From the NCBI RefSeq assembly GCF_013167455.1, contig NZ_CP038328.1: DNA of 64,000 bases. One strand, 5' to 3'. The position numbers and the translations under genes are program-made. The notes beneath the pieces were generated by a model, which was not told where the DNA came from, did not search any database, and saw only the letters and a list, made by a program, of their open reading frames with translations. Shown one piece after another: positions 3,178 to 40,022 of the stretch (within the stretch, counting starts at the first letter, position 1; each line of letters starts with the position of its first letter). This DNA comes from Escherichia coli O157:H7 (GTDB taxonomy: Bacteria; Pseudomonadota; Gammaproteobacteria; Enterobacterales; Enterobacteriaceae).

Positions 3178-3519
3178 ATGATGAAAAAAAGTATTCTGGC
3201 GTTTCTGTTACTCACCAGTTCTGCAGCGGCGCTGGCTGCACCGCAGGTGATTACCGTCAGCCGTTTTGAAGTGGGTAAAGACAAATGGGCGTTTAATCGC
3301 GAAGAGGTGATGCTGACTTGCCGACCGGGTAATGCTTTGTATGTCATCAACCCAAGTACCCTCGTGCAGTATCCTTTAAACGATGTCGCACAGAAGGAAG
3401 TTGCCAGTGGGAAGACTAAAGCCCAACCCATTTCGGTGATTCAGATTGATGATCCCAACAATCCCGGCGAAAAAATGAGTCTGGCACCGTTTATAGAACG
3501 AGCTGAAAAACTCTGTTAA
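3178..3519 (+). CDS. yebY: Secreted DUF2511-family protein
   Basis: 113 aa with signal peptide; third gene of the yobA-yebZ-yebY operon. Confidence 0.85.
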
Positions 3520-3548
3520 TTACCTAAAATAGCCTTTTGATTTCCAAT

Positions 3549-3591
3549 AAAAAAACCGCCTCAGTTCTTTCACCAGAACGGGCGGTTTTTA
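3549..3591. terminator. Bidirectional intrinsic terminator downstream of yebY
   Basis: Hairpin AACCGCC...GGCGGTT flanked by an A-tract on the 5' side and a T-tract on the 3' side, so it is terminator-like on both strands. Confidence 0.6.
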
Positions 3592-3639
3592 ACATTTAAG
3601 CTGATGACCACCGCGCTTTTTATTGACCATTTTGCACGC

Positions 3640-3677
3640 AAACTGGAAAACCTGGCGTCGTCATCTATTCTTAAAGG
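3640..3677 (+). promoter_or_regulatory. Sigma-S-type promoter of sdsR
   Basis: TCTATTCT (-10 TATTCT with upstream C) ending 6 nt before the SdsR 5' end. Confidence 0.45.
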
Positions 3678-3780
3678 GCAAGGCAACTAAGCCTGCATTA
3701 ATGCCAACTTTTAGCGCACGGCTCTCTCCCAAGAGCCATTTCCCTGGACCGAATACAGGAATCGTGTTCGGTCTCTTTTT
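3678..3780 (+). ncRNA. sdsR: Small regulatory RNA SdsR (RyeB)
   Basis: Sequence GCAAGGCAACTAAGCCTGCATTAATGCC...GTTCGGTCTCTTTTT matches remembered SdsR; ends in a hairpin (GACCGAA/TTCGGTC) plus T-tract; lies in the yebY-pphA intergenic region as in K-12. Confidence 0.75.
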
Positions 3781-3914
3781 ATCTGTTAAAAGCCAGAAGC
3801 ATTTCCTTCGCTGACTTTATAGTCAACCATAACACACACTCTACTGTCTGAGTCCAGCGTTTTTTAACATTCTTGTTAAGATTATGTGATCTTTAGCGCG
3901 GGAGGAAAATATTG

Positions 3915-4571
3915 ATGAAACAGCCTGCGCCCGTTTATCAGAGAATTGCGGGTCATCAATGGCGACATATCTGGCTTTCTGGCGATATACACGGTTGTCT
4001 TGAGCAGTTGCGCCGCAAATTATGGCATTGTCGTTTTGATCCGTGGCGAGATTTACTTATCTCAGTGGGAGACGTTATCGATCGTGGGCCGCAAAGTTTA
4101 CGTTGTCTGCAGTTACTGGAACAACATTGGGTTCGTGCGGTAAGAGGCAATCATGAACAGATGGCGATGGATGCGCTGGCATCCCAGCAGATGTCTTTGT
4201 GGTTGATGAATGGCGGCGACTGGTTTATTGCGCTGGCAGATAATCAACAGAAACAAGCGAAAACGGCGCTGGAAAAATGTCAGCATTTGCCCTTTATTCT
4301 TGAAGTACACAGCCGCACCGGCAAACATGTTATTGCTCATGCCGATTATCCAGATGATGTTTATGAATGGCAAAAGGACGTTGATTTGCATCAGGTCTTG
4401 TGGAGCCGCTCGCGATTAAGTGAACGCCAAAAAGGGCAGGGAATTACAGGTGCTGATCATTTCTGGTTTGGTCATACACCGTTGCGCCATCGCGTGGATA
4501 TTGGCAACCTGCATTATATTGATACCGGCGCTGTCTTTGGGGGCGAACTGACTTTCGTGCAATTGCAATAA
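3915..4571 (+). CDS. pphA: Serine/threonine protein phosphatase 1 (metallophosphatase)
   Basis: Motifs GDIHG, GDVIDRG and GNHE in the translation; 218 aa from the second ATG. Confidence 0.9.
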   Translation: MKQPAPVYQRIAGHQWRHIWLSGDIHGCLEQLRRKLWHCRFDPWRDLLISVGDVIDRGPQSLRCLQLLEQHWVRAVRGNHEQMAMDALASQQMSLWLMNGGDWFIALADNQQKQAKTALEKCQHLPFILEVHSRTGKHVIAHADYPDDVYEWQKDVDLHQVLWSRSRLSERQKGQGITGADHFWFGHTPLRHRVDIGNLHYIDTGAVFGGELTFVQLQ

Positions 4572-5221: not shown

Positions 5222-6661
5222 TCATGCGTTACTGGTAAAAAGTTTCCCGTCCCGCACCAGTTCACGCGGGTAGCTGTTTTTCAGTCGCGAACCAATCCGT
5301 TTGGCTAAACCAATCGGCTGATGCTGGAAAGTAACCAACACGTCATCCGCCACTGGCGCGGCTTGCGGGTAAACATCGCGCCCGCGATACCACTCCTCCG
5401 CTTCTTGCGGTGTCAGTTCAAAAGCGTTCTCGTTGTCGGGGGAGGCAAGGGCAATAACCGCTTCATGCTGCCAGCGATAACCTTTGTTGTGCGTTTCGGC
5501 AAGTTTAATCCCCAGGCGAGAAAATCGGACTTTACCGATCAGGGCTTCAATGCCTACCGGAAACAACCACACTTCTTTGTCGCGCTGCCAGAGTCGCAGG
5601 TTTCCATCCCAGTTTAAGCCAACACTTGCAGCCGCCTGACGAATTTGTGCGGCTTCGCGATCTTTCACCGGGCTGAACGGGAAATTGCCCACTTTGTATT
5701 TTGGGGTGGGTAAGGCGGGAATGGCCTGAGTTTTACGCAGACGAGCAACGAAGAAGCCTTCGCAGTCGTAAATTTGTGGGAAAACATGCAAAAAGCCTTC
5801 TTCGGTCAGCGCTTTGTTTGCACCAGGGAAGAGATCGCCAAGTGGTAAAAACTCTACTGCGTCGGGGTAAGTCTCTTTAAGCCACAGGCAAACGGATTCG
5901 TTTTCTTCCCGGTTTAAGGTACAGGTCGAGTAAACCAGTGTACCGCCAGAGCGTAATGCATGAAAGGCACTGTCGATCAGTTCCCGTTGGGTAGCTGCGA
6001 TTTCCTGATTGCTTTCTGGTGACCAATTTTTTAGCGCATCGGGATCTTTACGCACCACGCCTTCGCCGGAGCAGGGAGCGTCCAGCAAAATGGCATCGAA
6101 CATTTCTGGCAATGCCGCACCAAACACGCGGCCATCAAAATGTGTGAGCGCAACATTACTGATACCACAGCGGCTGATATTGGCATGTAACACTTTTACC
6201 CGACTGGCGGAAAACTCATTGGCAAGGATTGCCCCTTCGTTATTCATCCGCGCGGCAATTTGCGTCGTTTTGGAGCCTGGCGCAGCAGCGACATCCATCA
6301 CCCGCTGTGGTGCATTACCGTCAGCAAACAAGGCGGCGACGGGCAACATTGAACTGGCTTCCTGAATATAAAACAGGCCACTTAAATGCTCGGCGGTACT
6401 ACCCAATGGCAATGCATCTTCATCGTCGCGTTCAATCCAGAAACCTTCTTCACACCACGGAATTGGCGTAAGCGTCCAGCCATAAGGAGCGGTTAATCGC
6501 AGGAAATCAGCAACGGAGGTTTTCAGCGTATTAACGCGAATGCTGCGGCGCAACGGGCGCTGACAGGCGGCAAGAAAATCATCAAAAGAGAGCGTCGAAG
6601 GCATTGCTTCGCGCATTTGCGTCAGAAAGGCGTCCGGGAAATAAACGGTGTGTTGGGCCAC
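5222..6661 (-). CDS. rsmF: 16S rRNA m5C1407 methyltransferase (NOL1/NOP2/Sun family)
   Basis: SAM-methyltransferase motifs [10 protein letters not shown] and DAPCSGEG; start set at GTG 6661 for the recalled 479 aa (ATG at 6667 is an alternative); track ORF is over-extended upstream. Confidence 0.85.
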
Positions 6662-6741
6662 GAGCATATACCACTGGCAAAAAAAACAGGCGCGCAGTTT
6701 AGCATAAACGCTCCGGCGCAGGCACGCCGGAGCAGTGGGCA

Positions 6742-9375
6742 TTATTTGGGAAGCGCAGTTCCCCATTCACGCCACTCTTTCGGTTCACTTTCCTGCAACA
6801 GGAAGTGCTTGCCTTCCTGGGCTTTCGGTGCCAGTGGCGTACCCGGAGGCGTGGCGAAGGCGATGCCGCCACGGATAAACTGGTTAAAGGTGCCGGTTTT
6901 CACTACGCCGCCCGTCAGACCAAAGTCCAGACTGTAACCCGATGCCAACCAGAAGACGGAATTGTTACGCACCAGGTGTTGATAGCGTTTACTGATGCGC
7001 ATCGCAATCATCACGCGATCTGACAATGTCCCCAGCGTCATTCCGGTAACCGTACCGACTTCCAGACCACGGAACAGCACAGGCGTACCGATGCCTAACG
7101 AACAGGCTTCCGGCGCTTCAACAATAATGCTTAAACCATCCAGGTAACGCGAATCAGTAATGGTGGCCTCTTGTAATTCAAAGTCGCGACGAGGATTGCC
7201 ACGGCCTGGTTCGACGTTGATATACGGCTGGAGGATAGTATCAAGATGCTCAACGCCAGCTGCCGAAATTTGCGGTGTGACCACTGAGAAGCGCGTACCA
7301 CCGCGAGCAAAGGTCTGGACATATTCCGGATAGAGCACCGCCTTTGCCTGTACTTCATTGCGCGCGGTAATCAGATCCAGCGTCTGGATTTGCCCGATAT
7401 CAATACCGAGATAGCGAATTGGCATCCCGACCGCCAGTTTTCCGGCATCGAAAGCATGAAGCGTAATCTGCCCGCCAACCGCACGGGCCGCTGTTTCGGA
7501 AGCATACAGAATACGCTTATCGCCTTTACGCTGACTGGCGCTGGCACCGCTGAGGTTATCGAAGCTAATGGCTCCCTTTAATGCTCTGGAGAGTGGGGAT
7601 GCCTGTACGGTCAGGCCACTACCATTCAGCTGAACTTTCGCCCCGCCTTCTGCCCAGAACACGCTATTGTTGGTCAGAAGGTTGCGATACTCCGGCTTAA
7701 TATGCAGATCGATATCAAACGCGTTAGCTCGCGGACGCACGGTAATAACTTCACCAACTTCAAATTTACGGTACAGCACTACCGATCCTGCCTGCACATC
7801 CGGCAGCGTCTCTGCACTCAAACTCACGGTTGTGGTGGGTAAATCGCTAAGGCTGTTCTCCAGCGCTTTTTCCAGATTGGCATACAGTGGATAGCTGGCT
7901 TTCATCTCACCTTTATCGCCCGGCAGAATACGTATCCCGCCATTGATCCATTCTGAGGCGCTGGCACCGAGAAACTCAACGCCATCCAGCCCCACCTTCA
8001 CATCGACACGGCTGTTGACGACAAATTTGCTATCGCCTTTTACCAGTTCGCGATGCTGAGGCTCAATGGCGACGGTAAAGGTAACGCCTTTGCTGGTGAG
8101 TTTACGATCAATAACCTGGCCTACCTGCACGCCGTGAAGAATGAGCGGCTGACCAGCATCAATACCGTAACTTTCCGGTGCTGTCAGGGTCAGTGTCAGA
8201 ACATCAGGTTCATGCAGCAGTGCTTTTTCGCCTGGCACAACAACGAACTCTTTGCGTGGCTCGCCATCGCCAGGCACCAACTCAAAGGTTTTTCCGGTCA
8301 GCAGGGCGCTGAGATTGGCATCGCTAAGGGATAATTTCGGGTTGCGTAATTCGATGCGGGTATTTTCCCGTAACAGCGTAACGACGCTGGGATCAACGGT
8401 CATTTCTCCGGTGACTTTACCACCAGGATTTAAATCCAGTTTAGTCAGCTGTCCGACTTCCAGCCCCTGATACATTAACGGCGTCGAGTCGGCGGTTAAT
8501 CCGGCCCCACTCGGCAGTTCCAGTTTTATTATTACGCCACGCTGGCTGTGGGCCAGATCTTCATACAGACCAAAGGTATCTTCCGCCTCGGCAGGTTTCG
8601 ACTCTTCTGGTGAATCGAAGGCAATCGCACCGTTAACCAGTGCCGCCAGACTTTCCAGTTTCACCTTCGCGCCACTGATACTGACGTTGGCATCAACGCC
8701 TGAAACGTTCCAGAAACGGCTACCTTTTTTCACCAGGTCGGTAAAACGCCGCTCGATCAGGACATCAATCACCACGCCTTGTTTATTGGGATTGATGGCA
8801 TAGTCGTAGACTTTTCCCACCGGGATCTTGCGGAAATAGACCAATGAACCGCTGTTCAGCGAACCGAGATCGGGAGCTTGCAGGTGGATCATCAGATCGC
8901 CGTTATCCAGCCGATACTTCGGTTGGGTATCGAGCGCGACAAAGTGATCCTGCTCTTTACCTTTACCTGGCATCATGCCGATATAGTTACCACCGACGAG
9001 GGCGTCCAGCCCGGAGACACCTGCCAACGATGCTTTTGGCGTCACCAGCCAGAACTGAGTCTCTTCGCGCAGCGCATCTTTCATATCGGACTTGATGCTG
9101 ACCTTGACTTCAATCTTACGAAGATCGTCGCTGAGGCTGATATCCTGCACTGTTCCGACTTCAACGCCCTGATAACGAACAGGCGTACGGCCCGGGACAA
9201 TACCATCCGCCGACATAAAGTCGATGGTGACGGTATTACCCCGGTCCTGATAACTGTCCCAAATCAGCCAACCGGCAATCATTAGCGCGATGAACGGCAG
9301 CAGCCAGAAAGGTGAGATACGGCGTTTATTTTTAATCTGCGCTTCAGTCGTCGAAGCGGGCGTTTCCTGACTCAT
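6742..9375 (-). CDS. letB: Periplasm-spanning multi-MCE-domain lipid transport protein LetB (YebT)
   Basis: 877 aa from ATG 9375 ([28 protein letters not shown]...), one N-terminal TM then long repetitive beta-rich body; overlaps letA stop by 32 nt. Confidence 0.9.
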
Positions 9376-18625: not shown

Positions 18626-19293
18626 TCCTTCCTCAATCTTGAGTAACCCCGTCGTTGAAGGGTTACTCAATTCATCCTGATTATACGCACTGTCATGGTG
18701 CAACTGCTTCAAATTAAAACTCTGGTCTGACTTCAAATAATTATCATATTATTTATTTGCGTAACGGGATATCAGAAAAAGATATTTACCCCATTAATTT
18801 ATTAGGATGTTTACATCGGATTTGTGATTAAGCGTGGTATTATTTATTAGCGAAACGTTTCTCTCTTGATTTTTTTTGCTTATTCATCAATTTTTCTTAT
18901 TTTAAATTTCCAATTCCTTTGGGATTGACTTCTCTTTGGGGTGATTGAGAGCCGTTAACTGCCTGTTTTATGAGAAAAAGTGATATAACTTTTTATTCAT
19001 TGCATAGCAGAAAATGTGATATTGCACGCACTATGTAATAACTTCTCCCACTGACCTGGAACAACTGAACTTATTGAACTATGTTAGAAACTACGTCAGT
19101 TTAAGTATCTGCGGAACTGACAAGGTTAAGCACAATGATATATCGGCGCGTATTCCGTTGCATAAGTGTGCAAAAAAAGTGGAAGACGTATCGAGATTTG
19201 TGCGTCTGATCGAGACATGTTTAAAAATGGCTTGCCATAATTAACGTTGTATGTGATAACAGATTTCGGGTTAAACGAGGTACAGTTCTGTTT

Positions 19294-19437
19294 ATGTGTG
19301 GCATTTTCAGTAAAGAAGTCCTGAGTAAACACGTTGACGTTGAATACCGCTTCTCTGCCGAGCCTTATATTGGTGCCTCATGCAGTAATGTGTCAGTTTT
19401 ATCTATGTTATGCCTGCGGGCGAAGAAAACAATCTAA
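19294..19437 (+). CDS. yobF: Small protein YobF (47 aa)
   Basis: Read directly: [47 protein letters not shown]; stop 12 nt before cspC start (yobF-cspC operon). Confidence 0.8.
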
Positions 19438-19449
19438 GGAATTTTTCAA

Positions 19450-19659
19450 ATGGCAAAGATTAAAGGTCAGGTTAAGTGGTTCAACGAGTCTAAAGGTTTT
19501 GGCTTCATTACTCCTGCTGATGGCAGCAAAGACGTGTTCGTACACTTCTCCGCTATCCAGGGTAATGGCTTCAAAACTCTGGCTGAAGGTCAGAACGTTG
19601 AGTTCGAAATTCAGGACGGCCAGAAAGGTCCGGCAGCTGTTAACGTAACAGCTATCTGA
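19450..19659 (+). CDS. cspC: Cold-shock-domain protein CspC
   Basis: 69 aa [20 protein letters not shown]... with RNP1/RNP2 motifs. Confidence 0.95.
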
Positions 19660-19703
19660 TCGAATCCACTGATCTGAAGTGTGAATACGCTTCAATCTCG
19701 CTA

Positions 19704-19731
19704 TAAAGCCTCGTCGAATGCGAGGCTTTTT
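19704..19731 (+). terminator. Intrinsic terminator after cspC
   Basis: AAAGCCTCG-TCGAAT-GCGAGGCTTT hairpin followed by T-tract. Confidence 0.7.
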
Positions 19732-19824
19732 ACTATGCTTTATCTTCGCTCCTGGCGTTCGGATATTTGCCCGCCGCGTGATTCGCGTTACACTTGCGGC
19801 CTTTAGTATCCTGCCGGAGTTGTC

Positions 19825-36935: not shown

Positions 36936-37139
36936 TTGCTTGTTTTTAAAGAAAAAGAAACAGCGGCTGGTCCGCTGTTTCTGCATTCTTACGGTAAAGA
37001 TAAAAATAAATAGTGACGCGCTTCGCAACCTTTTCGTTGGGTAATTATCAAGCTGGTATGATGAGTTAATATTATGTTAACGGCATGTATATCATTTGGG
37101 GTTGCGATGACGACGAACACGCATTTTAGAGGTGAAGAA

Positions 37140-38825
37140 TTGAAGAAGGTTTGGCTTAACCGTTATCCCGCGGACGTTCCGACGGAGATCAACCCTGACC
37201 GTTATCAATCTCTGGTAGATATGTTTGAGCAGTCGGTCGCGCGCTACGCCGATCAGCCTGCGTTTGTGAATATGGGGGAGGTGATGACCTTCCGCAAGCT
37301 GGAAGAACGCAGTCGCGCGTTTGCCGCTTATTTGCAACAAGGGTTGGGGCTGAAGAAAGGCGATCGCGTTGCGTTGATGATGCCTAATTTATTGCAATAT
37401 CCGGTGGCGCTGTTTGGCATTTTGCGTGCCGGGATGATCGTCGTAAACGTTAACCCGTTGTATACCCCGCGTGAGCTTGAGCATCAGCTTAACGATAGCG
37501 GCGCATCGGCGATTGTCATTGTGTCCAACTTTGCTCACACGCTGGAAAAAGTGGTCGATAAAACCGCAGTTCAGCACGTTATCCTGACCCGTATGGGCGA
37601 TCAGCTTTCCACAGCGAAAGGCACACTGGTTAACTTCGTTGTTAAATACATCAAACGTCTGGTGCCGAAATATCATCTGCCAGATGCCATTTCATTTCGT
37701 AGCGCCCTGCACAACGGCTACCGTATGCAGTATGTCAAACCTGAACTGGTGCCAGAAGATTTAGCCTTCCTGCAATACACTGGCGGCACCACAGGTGTGG
37801 CGAAAGGCGCGATGCTGACTCACCGCAATATGCTGGCGAACCTGGAACAAGTTAACGCTACGTATGGGCCTCTGCTGCATCCGGGCAAAGAGCTGGTGGT
37901 GACGGCGCTGCCGCTGTATCACATTTTTGCACTGACCATTAACTGCCTGCTGTTTATCGAACTGGGTGGGCAGAACCTGCTTATCACTAACCCGCGGGAT
38001 ATTCCGGGGCTGGTCAAAGAGCTGGCGAAATATCCGTTTACCGCTATCACCGGCGTAAACACCTTGTTCAACGCGTTGCTGAACAATAAAGAGTTTCAAC
38101 AACTGGATTTCTCCAGTCTGCACCTTTCTGCAGGCGGTGGGATGCCTGTTCAGCAAGTGGTGGCAGAACGCTGGGTGAAACTGACCGGACAGTATCTGCT
38201 GGAAGGTTATGGCCTGACCGAATGTGCGCCGCTGGTCAGCGTGAACCCCTATGATATTGATTATCATAGCGGTAGCATTGGTTTGCCGGTGCCGTCGACG
38301 GAAGCCAAACTGGTGGATGACGACGATAATGAAGTATCGCCAGGTCAGCCAGGTGAACTTTGCGTCAGAGGTCCACAGGTGATGCTGGGCTATTGGCAGC
38401 GTCCGGATGCTACCGATGAAATCATCAAAAACGGCTGGTTACACACTGGCGACATCGCGGTAATGGATGAAGAAGGATTCCTGCGCATTGTCGATCGTAA
38501 AAAAGACATGATTTTGGTTTCCGGTTTTAACGTCTATCCCAACGAGATTGAAGATGTCGTCATGCAGCATCCTGGCGTACAGGAAGTCGCGGCTGTTGGT
38601 GTACCTTCCGGCTCCAGTGGTGAAGCGGTGAAAATCTTCGTAGTGAAAAAAGATCCATCGCTTACCGAAGAGTCACTGGTGACCTTTTGCCGCCGTCAGC
38701 TCACGGGCTACAAAGTACCGAAGCTGGTGGAGTTTCGTGATGAGTTACCGAAATCTAACGTCGGAAAAATTTTGCGACGAGAATTACGTGACGAAGCGCG
38801 CGGCAAAGTGGACAATAAAGCCTGA
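37140..38825 (+). CDS. fadD: Long-chain fatty acyl-CoA synthetase FadD (TTG start)
   Basis: AMP-binding motif [12 protein letters not shown]; start at TTG 37140 preceded by GAGGTG Shine-Dalgarno gives the recalled 561 aa ([14 protein letters not shown]...); track ATG 37074 is an over-extension. Confidence 0.9.
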
Positions 38826-38842
38826 GCGTTAAGTCAGTCGTC

Positions 38843-38870
38843 AGACGCCGGTTAATCCGGCGTTTTTTTT
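38843..38870 (+). terminator. Intrinsic terminator after fadD
   Basis: ACGCCGG-TTAA-TCCGGCGT hairpin followed by TTTTTTTT. Confidence 0.75.
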
Positions 38871-38894: not shown

Positions 38895-40022
38895 TTGAAT
38901 TACCAAATGATTACCACGGACGATGCGCTGGCTTCTTTGTGTGAAGCCGTCCGTGCCTTTCCGGCGATAGCCCTGGATACTGAATTTGTTCGTACGCGCA
39001 CTTATTACCCGCAGCTGGGGTTGATTCAACTTTTCGATGGCGAGCATCTGGCGCTAATTGATCCTCTCGGGATCACCGACTGGTCACCGCTGAAAGCGAT
39101 CCTGCGCGATCCGTCCATCACAAAATTTCTCCATGCAGGCAGTGAAGATCTGGAAGTGTTCCTCAATGTCTTTGGCGAATTACCACAACCCCTGATTGAC
39201 ACGCAAATCCTTGCTGCCTTCTGCGGACGCCCGATGTCATGGGGTTTCGCTTCCATGGTGGAAGAGTATTCCGGCGTTACGCTGGACAAGAGTGAATCGC
39301 GCACCGACTGGCTGGCCAGACCGCTGACCGAACGTCAGTGTGAATATGCAGCGGCGGATGTCTGGTATCTGTTACCGATCACCGCCAAGCTTATGGTAGA
39401 AACGGAGGCCTCCGGCTGGCTACCAGCGGCGCTGGATGAATGTCGCCTGATGCAAATGCGTCGTCAGGAAGTCGTTGCGCCGGAAGATGCCTGGCGTGAT
39501 ATCACCAATGCCTGGCAATTACGCACACGCCAACTGGCCTGTCTGCAACTGTTAGCCGACTGGCGACTGCGCAAGGCGCGAGAGCGCGATCTGGCGGTGA
39601 ACTTTGTCGTGCGTGAAGAGCATTTGTGGTCGGTAGCGCGTTATATGCCGGGAAGTTTAGGCGAACTGGACAGCCTGGGTTTATCCGGTAGCGAAATCCG
39701 CTTTCACGGTAAAACGCTGCTGGCGCTGGTGGAAAAAGCGCAGACATTGCCGGAAGAGGCCTTACCGCAGCCGATGCTTAACCTGATGGACATGCCGGGT
39801 TATCGTAAAGCGTTTAAAGCGATTAAGTCGCTGATTACTGACGTGAGCGAAACGCACAAGATCAGCGCCGAATTGCTGGCATCGCGTCGGCAAATCAACC
39901 AACTGCTGAACTGGCACTGGAAACTGAAACCGCAGAACAATTTGCCGGAGCTGATTTCCGGCTGGCGTGGTGAGCTGATGGCGGAAGCATTACACAATTT
40001 ATTGCAGGAATATCCGCAGTAA
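38895..40022 (+). CDS. rnd: Ribonuclease D
   Basis: 375 aa; DEDD exonuclease domain (IALDTEF) plus HRDC domains. Confidence 0.9.
   Translation: MNYQMITTDDALASLCEAVRAFPAIALDTEFVRTRTYYPQLGLIQLFDGEHLALIDPLGITDWSPLKAILRDPSITKFLHAGSEDLEVFLNVFGELPQPLIDTQILAAFCGRPMSWGFASMVEEYSGVTLDKSESRTDWLARPLTERQCEYAAADVWYLLPITAKLMVETEASGWLPAALDECRLMQMRRQEVVAPEDAWRDITNAWQLRTRQLACLQLLADWRLRKARERDLAVNFVVREEHLWSVARYMPGSLGELDSLGLSGSEIRFHGKTLLALVEKAQTLPEEALPQPMLNLMDMPGYRKAFKAIKSLITDVSETHKISAELLASRRQINQLLNWHWKLKPQNNLPELISGWRGELMAEALHNLLQEYPQ

What the first reader, a model, noticed from the sequence alone, without database searches (positions are those of the whole stretch)
3549..3797. SdsR/RyeA sense-antisense sRNA pair between yebY and pphA
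An SdsR-like transcript (3678-3780) is readable with a sigma-S-type -10 (TCTATTCT) and its own terminator. The only strong minus-strand terminator nearby is the bidirectional hairpin at 3549-3591, consistent with a longer antisense RyeA ending there. This is a described locus, but it is the main non-coding content of the window.
Basis: partly seen in the sequence, partly recalled or inferred. Interest (0 to 1): 0.35.

Follow-up and report, generated by a model that had tools for sequence, protein, structure and literature searches.

The report
Known SdsR/RyeA antisense small-RNA pair

Summary
Confirmed and already known. Rfam models hit SdsR_RyeB at 3681-3780 (+), 114 bits, and SraC_RyeA at 3784-3640 (-), 175 bits. 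The window matches E. coli K-12 with no indels and 2 SNPs over 3500-3930. K-12 annotation and published end-mapping therefore transfer:

- **SdsR:** 3678-3780 (+). It has a sigma-S promoter (-10 TATTCT at 3666-3671, -13C at 3665) and its own terminator at 3746-3780.
- **RyeA:** 3818 to about 3549 (-).

In 116 sequences from Enterobacterales, Shewanella and Paraglaciecola, the -13C and three -10 bases never change, and two SdsR helices covary. The RyeA-only parts are conserved only in E. coli.

The most likely mechanism comes from the K-12 and Salmonella literature. SdsR is an Hfq-dependent stationary-phase repressor. RyeA antagonises it through duplex formation with RNase III cleavage and through transcriptional interference. 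Read-through past the SdsR terminator drives pphA.

Side observation: the SdsR terminator (3750-3781) is an empty prophage attachment site, occupied in 228 of 5,426 complete E. coli genomes.

The parts
3178..3519 (+). yebY coding sequence, the upstream flank. sdsR lies downstream of yebY in enterobacteria.
   Evidence: ORF. RefSeq annotation on 100%-identical DNA. K-12 annotation. Synteny statement in PMC3333887.
3549..3591 (.). Two-way intrinsic terminator: A-run 3549-3555, stem-loop 3556-3585, T-run 3586-3590. It ends yebY transcription on the plus strand and RyeA on the minus strand.
   Evidence: Folds at -19.8 kcal/mol (+) and -20.0 kcal/mol (-), z -6.7 and -5.1. First strong minus-strand terminator after the RyeA start. 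RyeA 3' RACE ends +261 to +270 map to 3558-3549, and termination is Rho-independent in vitro in K-12. Sequence identical to K-12.
3644..3649 (+). Putative sdsR -35 hexamer TGGAAA, 16-bp spacer to the -10.
   Evidence: My inference from spacing. Positions -34 to -28 are 90-97% conserved in 116 sequences. PMC3333887 describes a 16-bp spacer.
3664..3671 (+). sdsR extended -10, TCTATTCT: hexamer TATTCT at 3666-3671, sigma-S hallmark C at -13 (3665), T at -14, C at -8, followed by the A/T-rich discriminator TAAA.
   Evidence: C-13, T-12, A-11 and T-7 are invariant in 116/116 sequences, and C-8 is present in 113/116. Replacing TATTCT with CTCGAG abolished SdsR in K-12 (primer PM_SdsRR). Only the sigma-S holoenzyme transcribes it efficiently in vitro.
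3678..3780 (+). SdsR (RyeB) small RNA. Start at 3678; mapped 3' ends at 3777-3779; annotation runs to 3780.
   Evidence: Rfam RF00111 at 114.4 bits. K-12 annotation mapped with no indels. Primer extension and RACE. Fold -34.8 kcal/mol, z -4.4. Median 95% identity across 106 Enterobacterales species.
3678..3696 (+). SdsR 5' stem-loop (helix 1). With the following single-stranded stretch it forms the first target-pairing region, which is lost from the processed form.
   Evidence: MFE fold. 5 of 6 pairs show changes on both sides across species. Pairing regions described in PMC11979758 and PMC5137417.
3708..3709 (+). RNase E processing site. The short form SdsR+32 begins at 3709 (AAC|UUUUAGCG).
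   Evidence: Monophosphate 5' ends at +31, +32 and +34 in K-12 RACE. A processed form lacking the first 31 nt is described in PMC11979758 and PMC5137417. The position here follows from sequence identity.
3720..3737 (+). SdsR central stem-loop (helix 2): GGCUCU-CUCCCA-AGAGCC.
   Evidence: Rfam consensus structure and MFE fold. It is invariant in my alignment, but my search pattern required it, so this is no independent test.
3746..3780 (+). SdsR Rho-independent terminator (helix 3, 11 pairs, loop AGGAAUC) plus U-tail. It is leaky, and read-through feeds pphA.
   Evidence: Scanner hit. -15.8 kcal/mol. 5 of 11 pairs show changes on both sides, 99.8% paired. Read-through and the sdsR-pphA transcript in K-12. 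Terminator-loop function in fepA control.
3750..3781 (.). Unoccupied prophage attachment core (attB) inside the SdsR terminator.
   Evidence: The 32-bp core is repeated at both ends of a ~43 kb prophage in NZ_CP148440.1. The SNP pattern places the crossover between 3755 and 3765. The same junction occurs in 228 of 5,426 E. coli genomes. There is a single copy in this window. The Salmonella precedent is summarised in PMC7380047.
3549..3818 (-). RyeA (SraC) antisense RNA, about 270 nt. It covers all of SdsR (3780-3678) plus 38 nt upstream and about 129 nt downstream of that overlap on its own strand.
   Evidence: K-12 ryeA 1923066..1923337 maps to 3818-3547. Start sites and 3' ends; my coordinate mapping agrees with that paper's construct numbering. 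Rfam RF00101 covers 3784-3640 at 175.1 bits, but that model is largely the mirror of SdsR. Fold -87.8 kcal/mol, z -3.3.
3826..3834 (-). ryeA sigma-70 promoter -10, read on the minus strand as TGT-TATGGT (extended -10). There are three start sites, the most downstream at 3818; the other two lie 1-2 nt upstream by inference.
   Evidence: Mutagenic primer PM_RyeAF replaces plus-strand ACCATA (3826-3831) with CTCGAG, and this abolishes RyeA. Only the sigma-70 holoenzyme transcribes it in vitro. Identical to K-12. The TGn reading is my inference. No convincing -35 was found.
3915..4571 (+). pphA (protein phosphatase 1), the downstream flank. In K-12 it is transcribed mainly by read-through from the sdsR promoter.
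   Evidence: ORF. Annotation. Read-through data in PMC6610125.

Best explanation
The interval is the E. coli sdsR/ryeA (ryeB/sraC) locus: two small RNA genes on opposite strands, one nested inside the other.

**SdsR (3678-3780, +).** It is made in stationary phase and under stress from a near-consensus sigma-S promoter. It ends at its own intrinsic terminator, binds Hfq, and represses many mRNAs in trans by short base-pairing. The published targets are tolC, mutS, yhcB and fepA in E. coli, and ompD, crp and stpA in Salmonella. RNase E trims it at about nt 31 to a shorter form with a narrower target set.

**RyeA (3818 to about 3549, -).** It is made in growing cells from a sigma-70 promoter just downstream of sdsR. 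It reads through the whole of sdsR and its promoter, and stops at the two-way hairpin behind yebY. It holds SdsR down in two ways. The two RNAs form a perfect duplex of about 100 bp that RNase III cuts, so each destroys the other. [quoted passage not shown]

**pphA.** Some polymerases read through the SdsR terminator and transcribe pphA, so pphA follows the same promoter logic but is not affected by RyeA RNA supplied in trans.

**What is shown and what is transferred.** Shown here: the sequence features, their positions, their folding, their conservation and covariation, and base-for-base identity with K-12 across SdsR, both promoters and both terminators. Taken from K-12 and Salmonella experiments and transferred by identity: expression pattern, sigma-factor dependence, transcript ends, Hfq dependence, targets, RNase III cleavage, interference and pphA read-through.
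For: - Rfam hits far above threshold on both strands.
- No indels and 2 SNPs against K-12 over 3500-3930; both SNPs (3598, 3613) lie in RyeA's 3' part, outside SdsR.
- The K-12 RefSeq record annotates ryeA and sdsR at the corresponding positions.
- Transcript ends, sigma-factor specificity, Rho-independent termination, mutual degradation, interference and pphA read-through are reported in PMC6610125.
- The sigma-S promoter features and conservation are reported in PMC3333887. I re-tested them: -13C, T-12, A-11 and T-7 are invariant in 116/116 sequences.
- Covariation: 98.7% of cells are paired, against 20-45% when the partner is slid. 10 pairs show changes on both sides, and 0 of 500 shuffles reach the observed values.
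- Both terminators fold well.
- ryeA-ryeB was the top stationary-phase RNase III-cut dsRNA cluster overlapping a small RNA captured by p19 (PMC7373196).
- Target and processing data come from PMC5137417 and PMC11979758.
- The locus is present in 5,425 of 5,426 complete E. coli genomes.
Against: - No expression data exist for this particular strain. Everything about transcripts is transferred from K-12 by sequence identity.
- The Rfam RyeA hit is not independent of the SdsR hit. The same model also scores on the antisense of SdsR in Shewanella and Paraglaciecola.
- The RyeA-only segments and its promoter are conserved only within E. coli, with median identity 0.24-0.45 elsewhere. RyeA is therefore a lineage-specific layer, not part of the conserved core.
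- The 'toxin/antitoxin' label rests on SdsR overexpression, according to the authors' own description.
- mutS did not respond as a primary target would in the promoter mutants.
Confidence: 0.95

Rival explanations
1. Only SdsR is a functional gene. RyeA is a by-product of a lineage-specific antisense promoter, and what matters is the act of transcription (interference with sdsR and pphA), not the RyeA RNA itself.
For: The RyeA 5' part and promoter are not conserved outside E. coli, which agrees with PMC3333887. Deleting the sraC promoter raised SdsR only about 1.5-fold. pphA repression needs ryeA transcription in cis, not RyeA supplied in trans. The ryeA promoter mutation changed only a few genes. 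The Rfam RyeA hit mirrors SdsR.
Against: Co-expression assays showed mutual degradation of the two RNAs. The pair forms abundant RNase III-cut duplexes in vivo. SdsR appears earlier in the ryeA promoter mutant. The RNA-level and transcription-level effects are not mutually exclusive.
Confidence: 0.2
2. RyeA is a primary transcript of about 145 nt with the Rfam model boundaries (3784 to 3640), not a ~270-nt RNA ending at the yebY hairpin.
For: The Rfam SraC_RyeA model spans exactly 3784-3640. A ~150-nt SraC species is seen on Northern blots.
Against: No terminator-like structure lies near 3640 on the minus strand. The SdsR terminator read in reverse has no U-run and folds weakly, at -11.1 kcal/mol, z -1.7. 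Mapped ends are 3818 and 3549-3558. The ~150-nt species depends on RNase III, so it is a processing product.
Confidence: 0.03
3. The region encodes a small protein, either the 63-codon ORF at 3623-3814 (+) or the 38-codon ORF at 3686-3570 (-), and the RNA structure is incidental.
For: Both ORFs exist in the window.
Against: No reading frame stays open across SdsR in most species: at best 43 of 111. The plus-strand ORF varies from 29 to 68 codons. There are 1-3 nt indels in the helix-1 loop. Substitutions are compensatory in the stems. The ORF start lies in unconserved sequence.
Confidence: 0.02

Closest known systems
SdsR / RyeB (Rfam RF00111), the sigma-S-dependent Hfq-binding core sRNA of enterobacteria
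   Same: Full-length model match. Position downstream of yebY. Sigma-S promoter with -13C. Three helices and an intrinsic terminator. 100% identical to the K-12 gene.
   Different: Nothing detectable. This is the same gene in another E. coli strain.
SraC / RyeA (Rfam RF00101), the antisense partner of SdsR in E. coli
   Same: Same promoter -10, same start region and same terminator as mapped in K-12.
   Different: Two SNPs in the 3' part (3598, 3613). The Rfam model (145 nt, 3784-3640) covers only the middle of the mapped ~270-nt RNA. According to PMC3333887, Salmonella and Shigella RyeA start about 35 nt further upstream.
The PhiW104 attachment site within the last 23 bp of ryeB in Salmonella (Balbontin et al. 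2008, as summarised in PMC7380047)
   Same: Prophages integrate in the 3' end of SdsR and rebuild it, while cutting RyeA off from its own 5' part and promoter.
   Different: Here the site is empty. In E. coli lysogens I measured a 32-bp repeated core (3750-3781), and pphA also ends up about 43 kb from sdsR. The regulatory effect in E. coli was not tested.
CJnc190/CJnc180 of Campylobacter (PMC8687705) and similar sRNA pairs with a cis-encoded antagonist
   Same: A trans-acting sRNA opposed by an RNA from the opposite strand, with RNase III cutting the duplex (title and abstract).
   Different: Unrelated sequence and organism. In that system RNase III matures the sRNA; here it is reported to degrade both partners.
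Type I toxin-antitoxin systems (for example hok/sok)
   Same: An antisense RNA neutralises a growth-inhibiting product of the opposite strand. The authors of PMC6610125 use this language.
   Different: The 'toxin' is itself a non-coding RNA acting through repression of yhcB. There is no toxic peptide, and no conserved ORF is present.

Membership tests
SdsR/RyeB (RF00111) | Covariance-model score above the curated gathering threshold over the full model | tested here: met
   114.4 bits against 38, model positions 1-100 of 100, E=1.8e-21.
SdsR/RyeB (RF00111) | Located downstream of yebY on the same strand | tested here: met
   yebY is at 3178-3519 (+) and SdsR at 3678-3780 (+). The synteny rule comes from PMC3333887.
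SdsR/RyeB (RF00111) | Sigma-S-selective promoter: C at -13, T or G at -14, C at -8, A/T-rich discriminator, 16-bp spacer | tested here: met
   All of these are present at 3644-3675. -13C is invariant in 116/116 sequences and -8C is present in 113/116.
SdsR/RyeB (RF00111) | Three helices ending in a Rho-independent terminator, supported by covariation | tested here: met
   Fold z -4.4. Helices 1 and 3 each have 5 pairs changed on both sides. Helix 2 is uninformative because my search pattern fixed it.
SdsR/RyeB (RF00111) | RpoS-dependent accumulation in stationary phase, and Hfq binding | not testable with these tools
   Shown for the identical K-12 sequence and for Salmonella in PMC3333887 and PMC6610125.
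SraC/RyeA (RF00101) | Covariance-model score above threshold on the strand opposite SdsR | tested here: met
   175.1 bits against 37. This is weak as evidence, because the model also scores opposite SdsR in Shewanella and Paraglaciecola.
SraC/RyeA (RF00101) | Own sigma-70 promoter downstream of sdsR on the minus strand | tested here: met
   The region 3781-3930 is 100% identical to K-12, including the -10 (3826-3831) that was mutated in PMC6610125.
SraC/RyeA (RF00101) | Termination at the yebY-proximal hairpin, giving a ~270-nt RNA | tested here: met
   Hairpin with a 7-U tail on the minus strand, -20.0 kcal/mol. K-12 3' RACE ends map to 3549-3558.
SraC/RyeA (RF00101) | Expression in exponential phase, reciprocal to SdsR, with RNase III-dependent processing | not testable with these tools
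   Literature only.
sRNA toxin / sRNA antitoxin pair (as proposed by Choi et al.) | Growth inhibition by SdsR through yhcB repression, relieved by RyeA | not testable with these tools
   The authors' statement in PMC6610125. yhcB is not in the window.
Prophage attB in the sdsR 3' end | Core sequence identical to the repeat that flanks integrated prophages at this locus | tested here: met
   The core 3750-3781 matches the attL and attR repeats of NZ_CP148440.1, apart from the SNPs that mark the crossover. There is a single copy in the window, so the site is empty.

The most novel reading that the evidence does not exclude
The SdsR terminator is also a prophage landing site. About 4% of complete E. 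coli genomes (228 of 5,426) carry a ~43 kb prophage there. That prophage leaves SdsR intact but moves the RyeA promoter and pphA about 43 kb away. In those strains SdsR would lose its antisense brake and pphA would lose its sigma-S promoter. This window shows the ancestral, intact circuit. The structural part is shown here. The regulatory consequence in E. coli is inferred from the K-12 circuit and from the Salmonella PhiW104 precedent.
Probability: 0.5. Interest if true: 0.3.

Novelty: already known. Interest (0 to 1): 0.1.

Why it matters
For a genome scan, this is a true positive and an annotation point rather than a discovery. SdsR is a core stationary-phase regulator linked in the literature to drug efflux (tolC), mutation rate (mutS), envelope biogenesis (yhcB) and iron uptake (fepA).

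Two practical points follow:
- RefSeq records other than K-12 list no feature over this stretch, so automatic annotation misses it.
- The Rfam RyeA model should not be read as giving the transcript's ends, or as proof that RyeA exists in a given species.

Tried and rejected
1. The generic promoter/terminator scanner found only the SdsR terminator. It missed the 3549-3591 hairpin, whose stem has an internal loop, and both mapped promoters. I replaced it with folding and my own T-run-plus-hairpin scan.

2. I first treated the RyeA Rfam hit as independent support. I rejected that after the same model scored on the antisense of SdsR in Shewanella and Paraglaciecola.

3. I tested coding potential of the overlapping ORFs and rejected it.

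4. From memory I expected a G-to-A difference from K-12 in the terminator (GUAUUC), and different K-12 coordinates for sdsR. The alignment and annotation showed both recollections were wrong: K-12 also has GUGUUC.

5. I looked for a convincing ryeA -35 hexamer and found none better than 4 of 6 at a 19-bp spacing. I report only the extended -10.

6. Searching the prophage arm against the phage collection gave a single, oddly labelled hit. That did not help to name the prophage.

7. Helix 2 of SdsR could not be tested for covariation, because my collection pattern required it.

Full report
**What is in the sequence**

Between a 113-codon ORF (3178-3519, +) and a 218-codon ORF (3915-4571, +) lies a 395-bp spacer. 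RefSeq records with 100%-identical DNA name the two ORFs yebY and pphA.

A scan of the whole window against Rfam gave four hits above the curated thresholds. Two fall in this spacer:
- SdsR_RyeB at 3681-3780 (+): 114.4 bits, E=1.8e-21, full model.
- SraC_RyeA at 3784-3640 (-): 175.1 bits, E=2.9e-40, full model.

There are no tRNA genes in the window.

**Transfer of the K-12 map**

The K-12 MG1655 RefSeq record annotates ryeA at 1923066..1923337 (+) and sdsR at 1923104..1923207 (-), between pphA and yebY. The window aligns to K-12 with no indels over 3500-3930. There are two substitutions, at 3598 and 3613.

The annotation therefore maps directly:
- sdsR = 3677-3780 (+)
- ryeA = 3818-3547 (-)

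SdsR, both promoters, both terminators and the RyeA 5' part are base-for-base identical to K-12. The two SNPs lie in RyeA's 3' part, outside the overlap with SdsR.

**Published end-mapping** (PMC6610125)

- Primer extension puts the SdsR start 1 nt downstream of the older annotation, at 3678.
- SdsR 3' ends are at +100 to +102, which is 3777-3779.
- RyeA has three start sites. The most downstream is the previously predicted end, 3818.
- RyeA 3' ends are at +261 to +270, which is 3558-3549.
- In vitro, sigma-S holoenzyme makes SdsR and sigma-70 holoenzyme makes RyeA. Both stop by Rho-independent termination.
- The mutagenic primers identify the two -10 hexamers: TATTCT at 3666-3671 for sdsR, and TATGGT on the minus strand (3831 to 3826) for ryeA.
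- As a cross-check, the paper's construct end at '+132' in sdsR numbering equals '+10' in ryeA numbering. That holds only if the starts are 3678 and 3818.

TCTATTCT occurs once in the window, at 3664-3671. As a bare 8-mer it is not significant: 70 of 100 shuffles contain at least one copy. Its meaning comes from its position and its conservation.

I collected 120 loci from one genome per species using a pattern in the centre of SdsR, and aligned 116 distinct sequences. C(-13), T(-12), A(-11) and T(-7) are invariant in all 116, including six from Shewanella and Paraglaciecola. C(-8) is present in 113.

The SdsR terminator (3746-3774 plus T-run) is found by the scanner and folds at -15.8 kcal/mol.

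The hairpin at 3549-3591 folds at -19.8 kcal/mol (+) and -20.0 kcal/mol (-), with 5 and 7 U after it. A custom scan shows it is the first strong minus-strand terminator downstream of the RyeA start. The SdsR terminator read in reverse has no U-run and folds weakly, so RyeA should pass through it.

**Structure**

SdsR folds at -34.8 kcal/mol (z -4.4) into three helices. Across the alignment:
- 98.7% of cells form standard pairs, against 20-45% when the 3' partner is slid by 1-3 columns.
- Ten pairs show changes on both sides.
- None of 500 shuffles reaches the observed values.

Helices 1 and 3 carry the covariation. Helix 2 is invariant, but my search pattern required it, so it is untested.

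No reading frame stays open across SdsR in most species, and the overlapping 63-codon ORF varies from 29 to 68 codons. A coding explanation is therefore rejected.

**What is conserved and what is not**

Against 106 Enterobacterales loci, median identity to the window was as follows:

| Segment | Median identity |
|---|---|
| SdsR | 0.95 |
| sdsR promoter | 0.86 |
| RyeA-only 5' part | 0.24 |
| ryeA promoter | 0.45 |

Only the E. coli representative matches the last two segments. This reproduces the conclusion of PMC3333887 that SdsR is the conserved gene and SraC/RyeA is variable.

It also means the Rfam RyeA hit is not independent evidence. The same model scores above threshold opposite SdsR in Shewanella and Paraglaciecola. 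Its high score here comes partly from the antisense of the conserved sdsR promoter. Its boundaries (3784 and 3640) match neither mapped end. The ~150-nt SraC species seen on blots depends on RNase III.

**How it most likely works**

These steps come from the K-12 and Salmonella literature and are transferred to this window by sequence identity.

- Sigma-S drives SdsR in stationary phase and under stress.
- SdsR binds Hfq. It represses targets through two pairing regions in its 5' half. RNase E removes the first 31 nt, so the short form starts at 3709 and has a narrower target set.
- Its terminator loop also contributes to fepA repression, by a route that is not direct pairing.
- RyeA, from a sigma-70 promoter, covers all of SdsR.
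- The two RNAs degrade each other, and RNase III is implicated.
- Their duplex was the top stationary-phase dsRNA cluster overlapping a small RNA that p19 captured.
- ryeA transcription also interferes in cis with sdsR transcription, and with read-through into pphA.

**Corrections to the finding**

The span 3549-3797 is 249 nt, which is the RyeA length quoted in older literature. This may or may not be a coincidence.

The window also holds a cspA-type leader hit on yobF-cspC and an sroD hit.

**Side observations**

The locus is present in 5,425 of 5,426 complete E. coli genomes but is interrupted in 237. In 228 of these, the SdsR 3' end abuts the integrase arm of a prophage.

In NZ_CP148440.1 a ~43 kb prophage sits between SdsR and pphA. 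It carries int, xis, ralR, recT, recE, kil and tail genes. It is flanked by a 32-bp repeat equal to window 3750-3781. The SNP pattern places the crossover between 3755 and 3765. The core occurs once in this window, so the site is empty. This matches the Salmonella PhiW104 case (Balbontin 2008, via PMC7380047).

One genome has IS1 inserted near 3685, inside SdsR.

**Verdict**

The locus is real, was correctly interpreted, and is already known. Interest is low.

Noticed in passing
window 3750-3781; L123 4001-4400; L125 160-330 and 43230-43510: The SdsR terminator is a prophage attachment site. It is empty here. In 228 of 5,426 complete E. coli genomes a ~43 kb prophage sits there. SdsR is rebuilt at attL, while the RyeA promoter and pphA are displaced to attR. 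This is known for Salmonella PhiW104. The regulatory effect in E. coli was not tested.
   Followed up: partly
L124 3249-4000 (NZ_CP065613.1): In strain FDAARGOS_944 an IS1A element is inserted at about window position 3685, a few nucleotides into SdsR. This separates the sRNA body from its sigma-S promoter. copD next to it is annotated as truncated.
   Followed up: partly
L025, L044, L056, L059, L110 (Shewanella); L100 (Paraglaciecola): SdsR homologues score above the Rfam threshold (62-88 bits) outside Enterobacterales. They keep the -13C/-10 promoter positions and have a covarying terminator. In L044 the gene lies just downstream of rsmF rather than yebY. rsmF is also a near neighbour in E. 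coli (window 5222-6766, minus strand).
   Followed up: partly
window 3640-3784 (-); L025, L044, L056, L059, L100, L110: The Rfam SraC_RyeA model (145 nt) covers only the middle of the mapped ~270-nt RyeA. It also scores wherever SdsR occurs, even in genera where the RyeA-specific parts and promoter are not conserved. A hit to it says little about whether RyeA exists.
   Followed up: yes
window 3547-3860; RefSeq records H1-H55: RefSeq annotation of non-K-12 E. coli genomes lists no feature over sdsR/ryeA ('none' under the match). Only the K-12 record carries the two ncRNA features.
   Followed up: partly
window 19274-19734 (+): An Rfam 'cspA thermoregulator' hit (136.9 bits) lies over a 47-codon ORF (19294-19437) and a 69-codon cold-shock-domain ORF (19450-19659). 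From memory these look like yobF and cspC. The hit is therefore on a cspA paralogue, not on cspA itself.
   Followed up: partly
window 38784-38869 (+): An Rfam sroD hit (115.2 bits, full model) overlaps the 3' end of a 583-codon ORF (37074-38825) and sits just upstream of a 375-codon ORF (38895-40022). This is consistent with the known sroD position between fadD and rnd; that identification is from memory.
   Followed up: no
L123 4236-4420; PP818812.1 46302-46485: The integrase-side arm of the E. coli prophage at the sdsR site has only one match in the phage collection, at 96.7% identity. That record is labelled Actinobacillus phage vB_Apl-pPE4, an unexpected host label for an E. coli-type sequence.
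   Followed up: no
window 3598 and 3613: These are the only two differences from K-12 across the locus (A for C, and G for A). They fall in RyeA's 3' part, at about +221 and +206, outside the SdsR overlap. No effect is predicted.
   Followed up: partly
window 3503-3530 (+): The scanner's only sigma-70-like promoter hit (CTGAAA-16-TAAAAT) spans the yebY stop codon (3517-3519) and the first bases after it, about 150-175 bp upstream of the sdsR start. That is close to where the older literature placed a heat-shock pphA promoter, which PMC6610125 questions.
   Followed up: no
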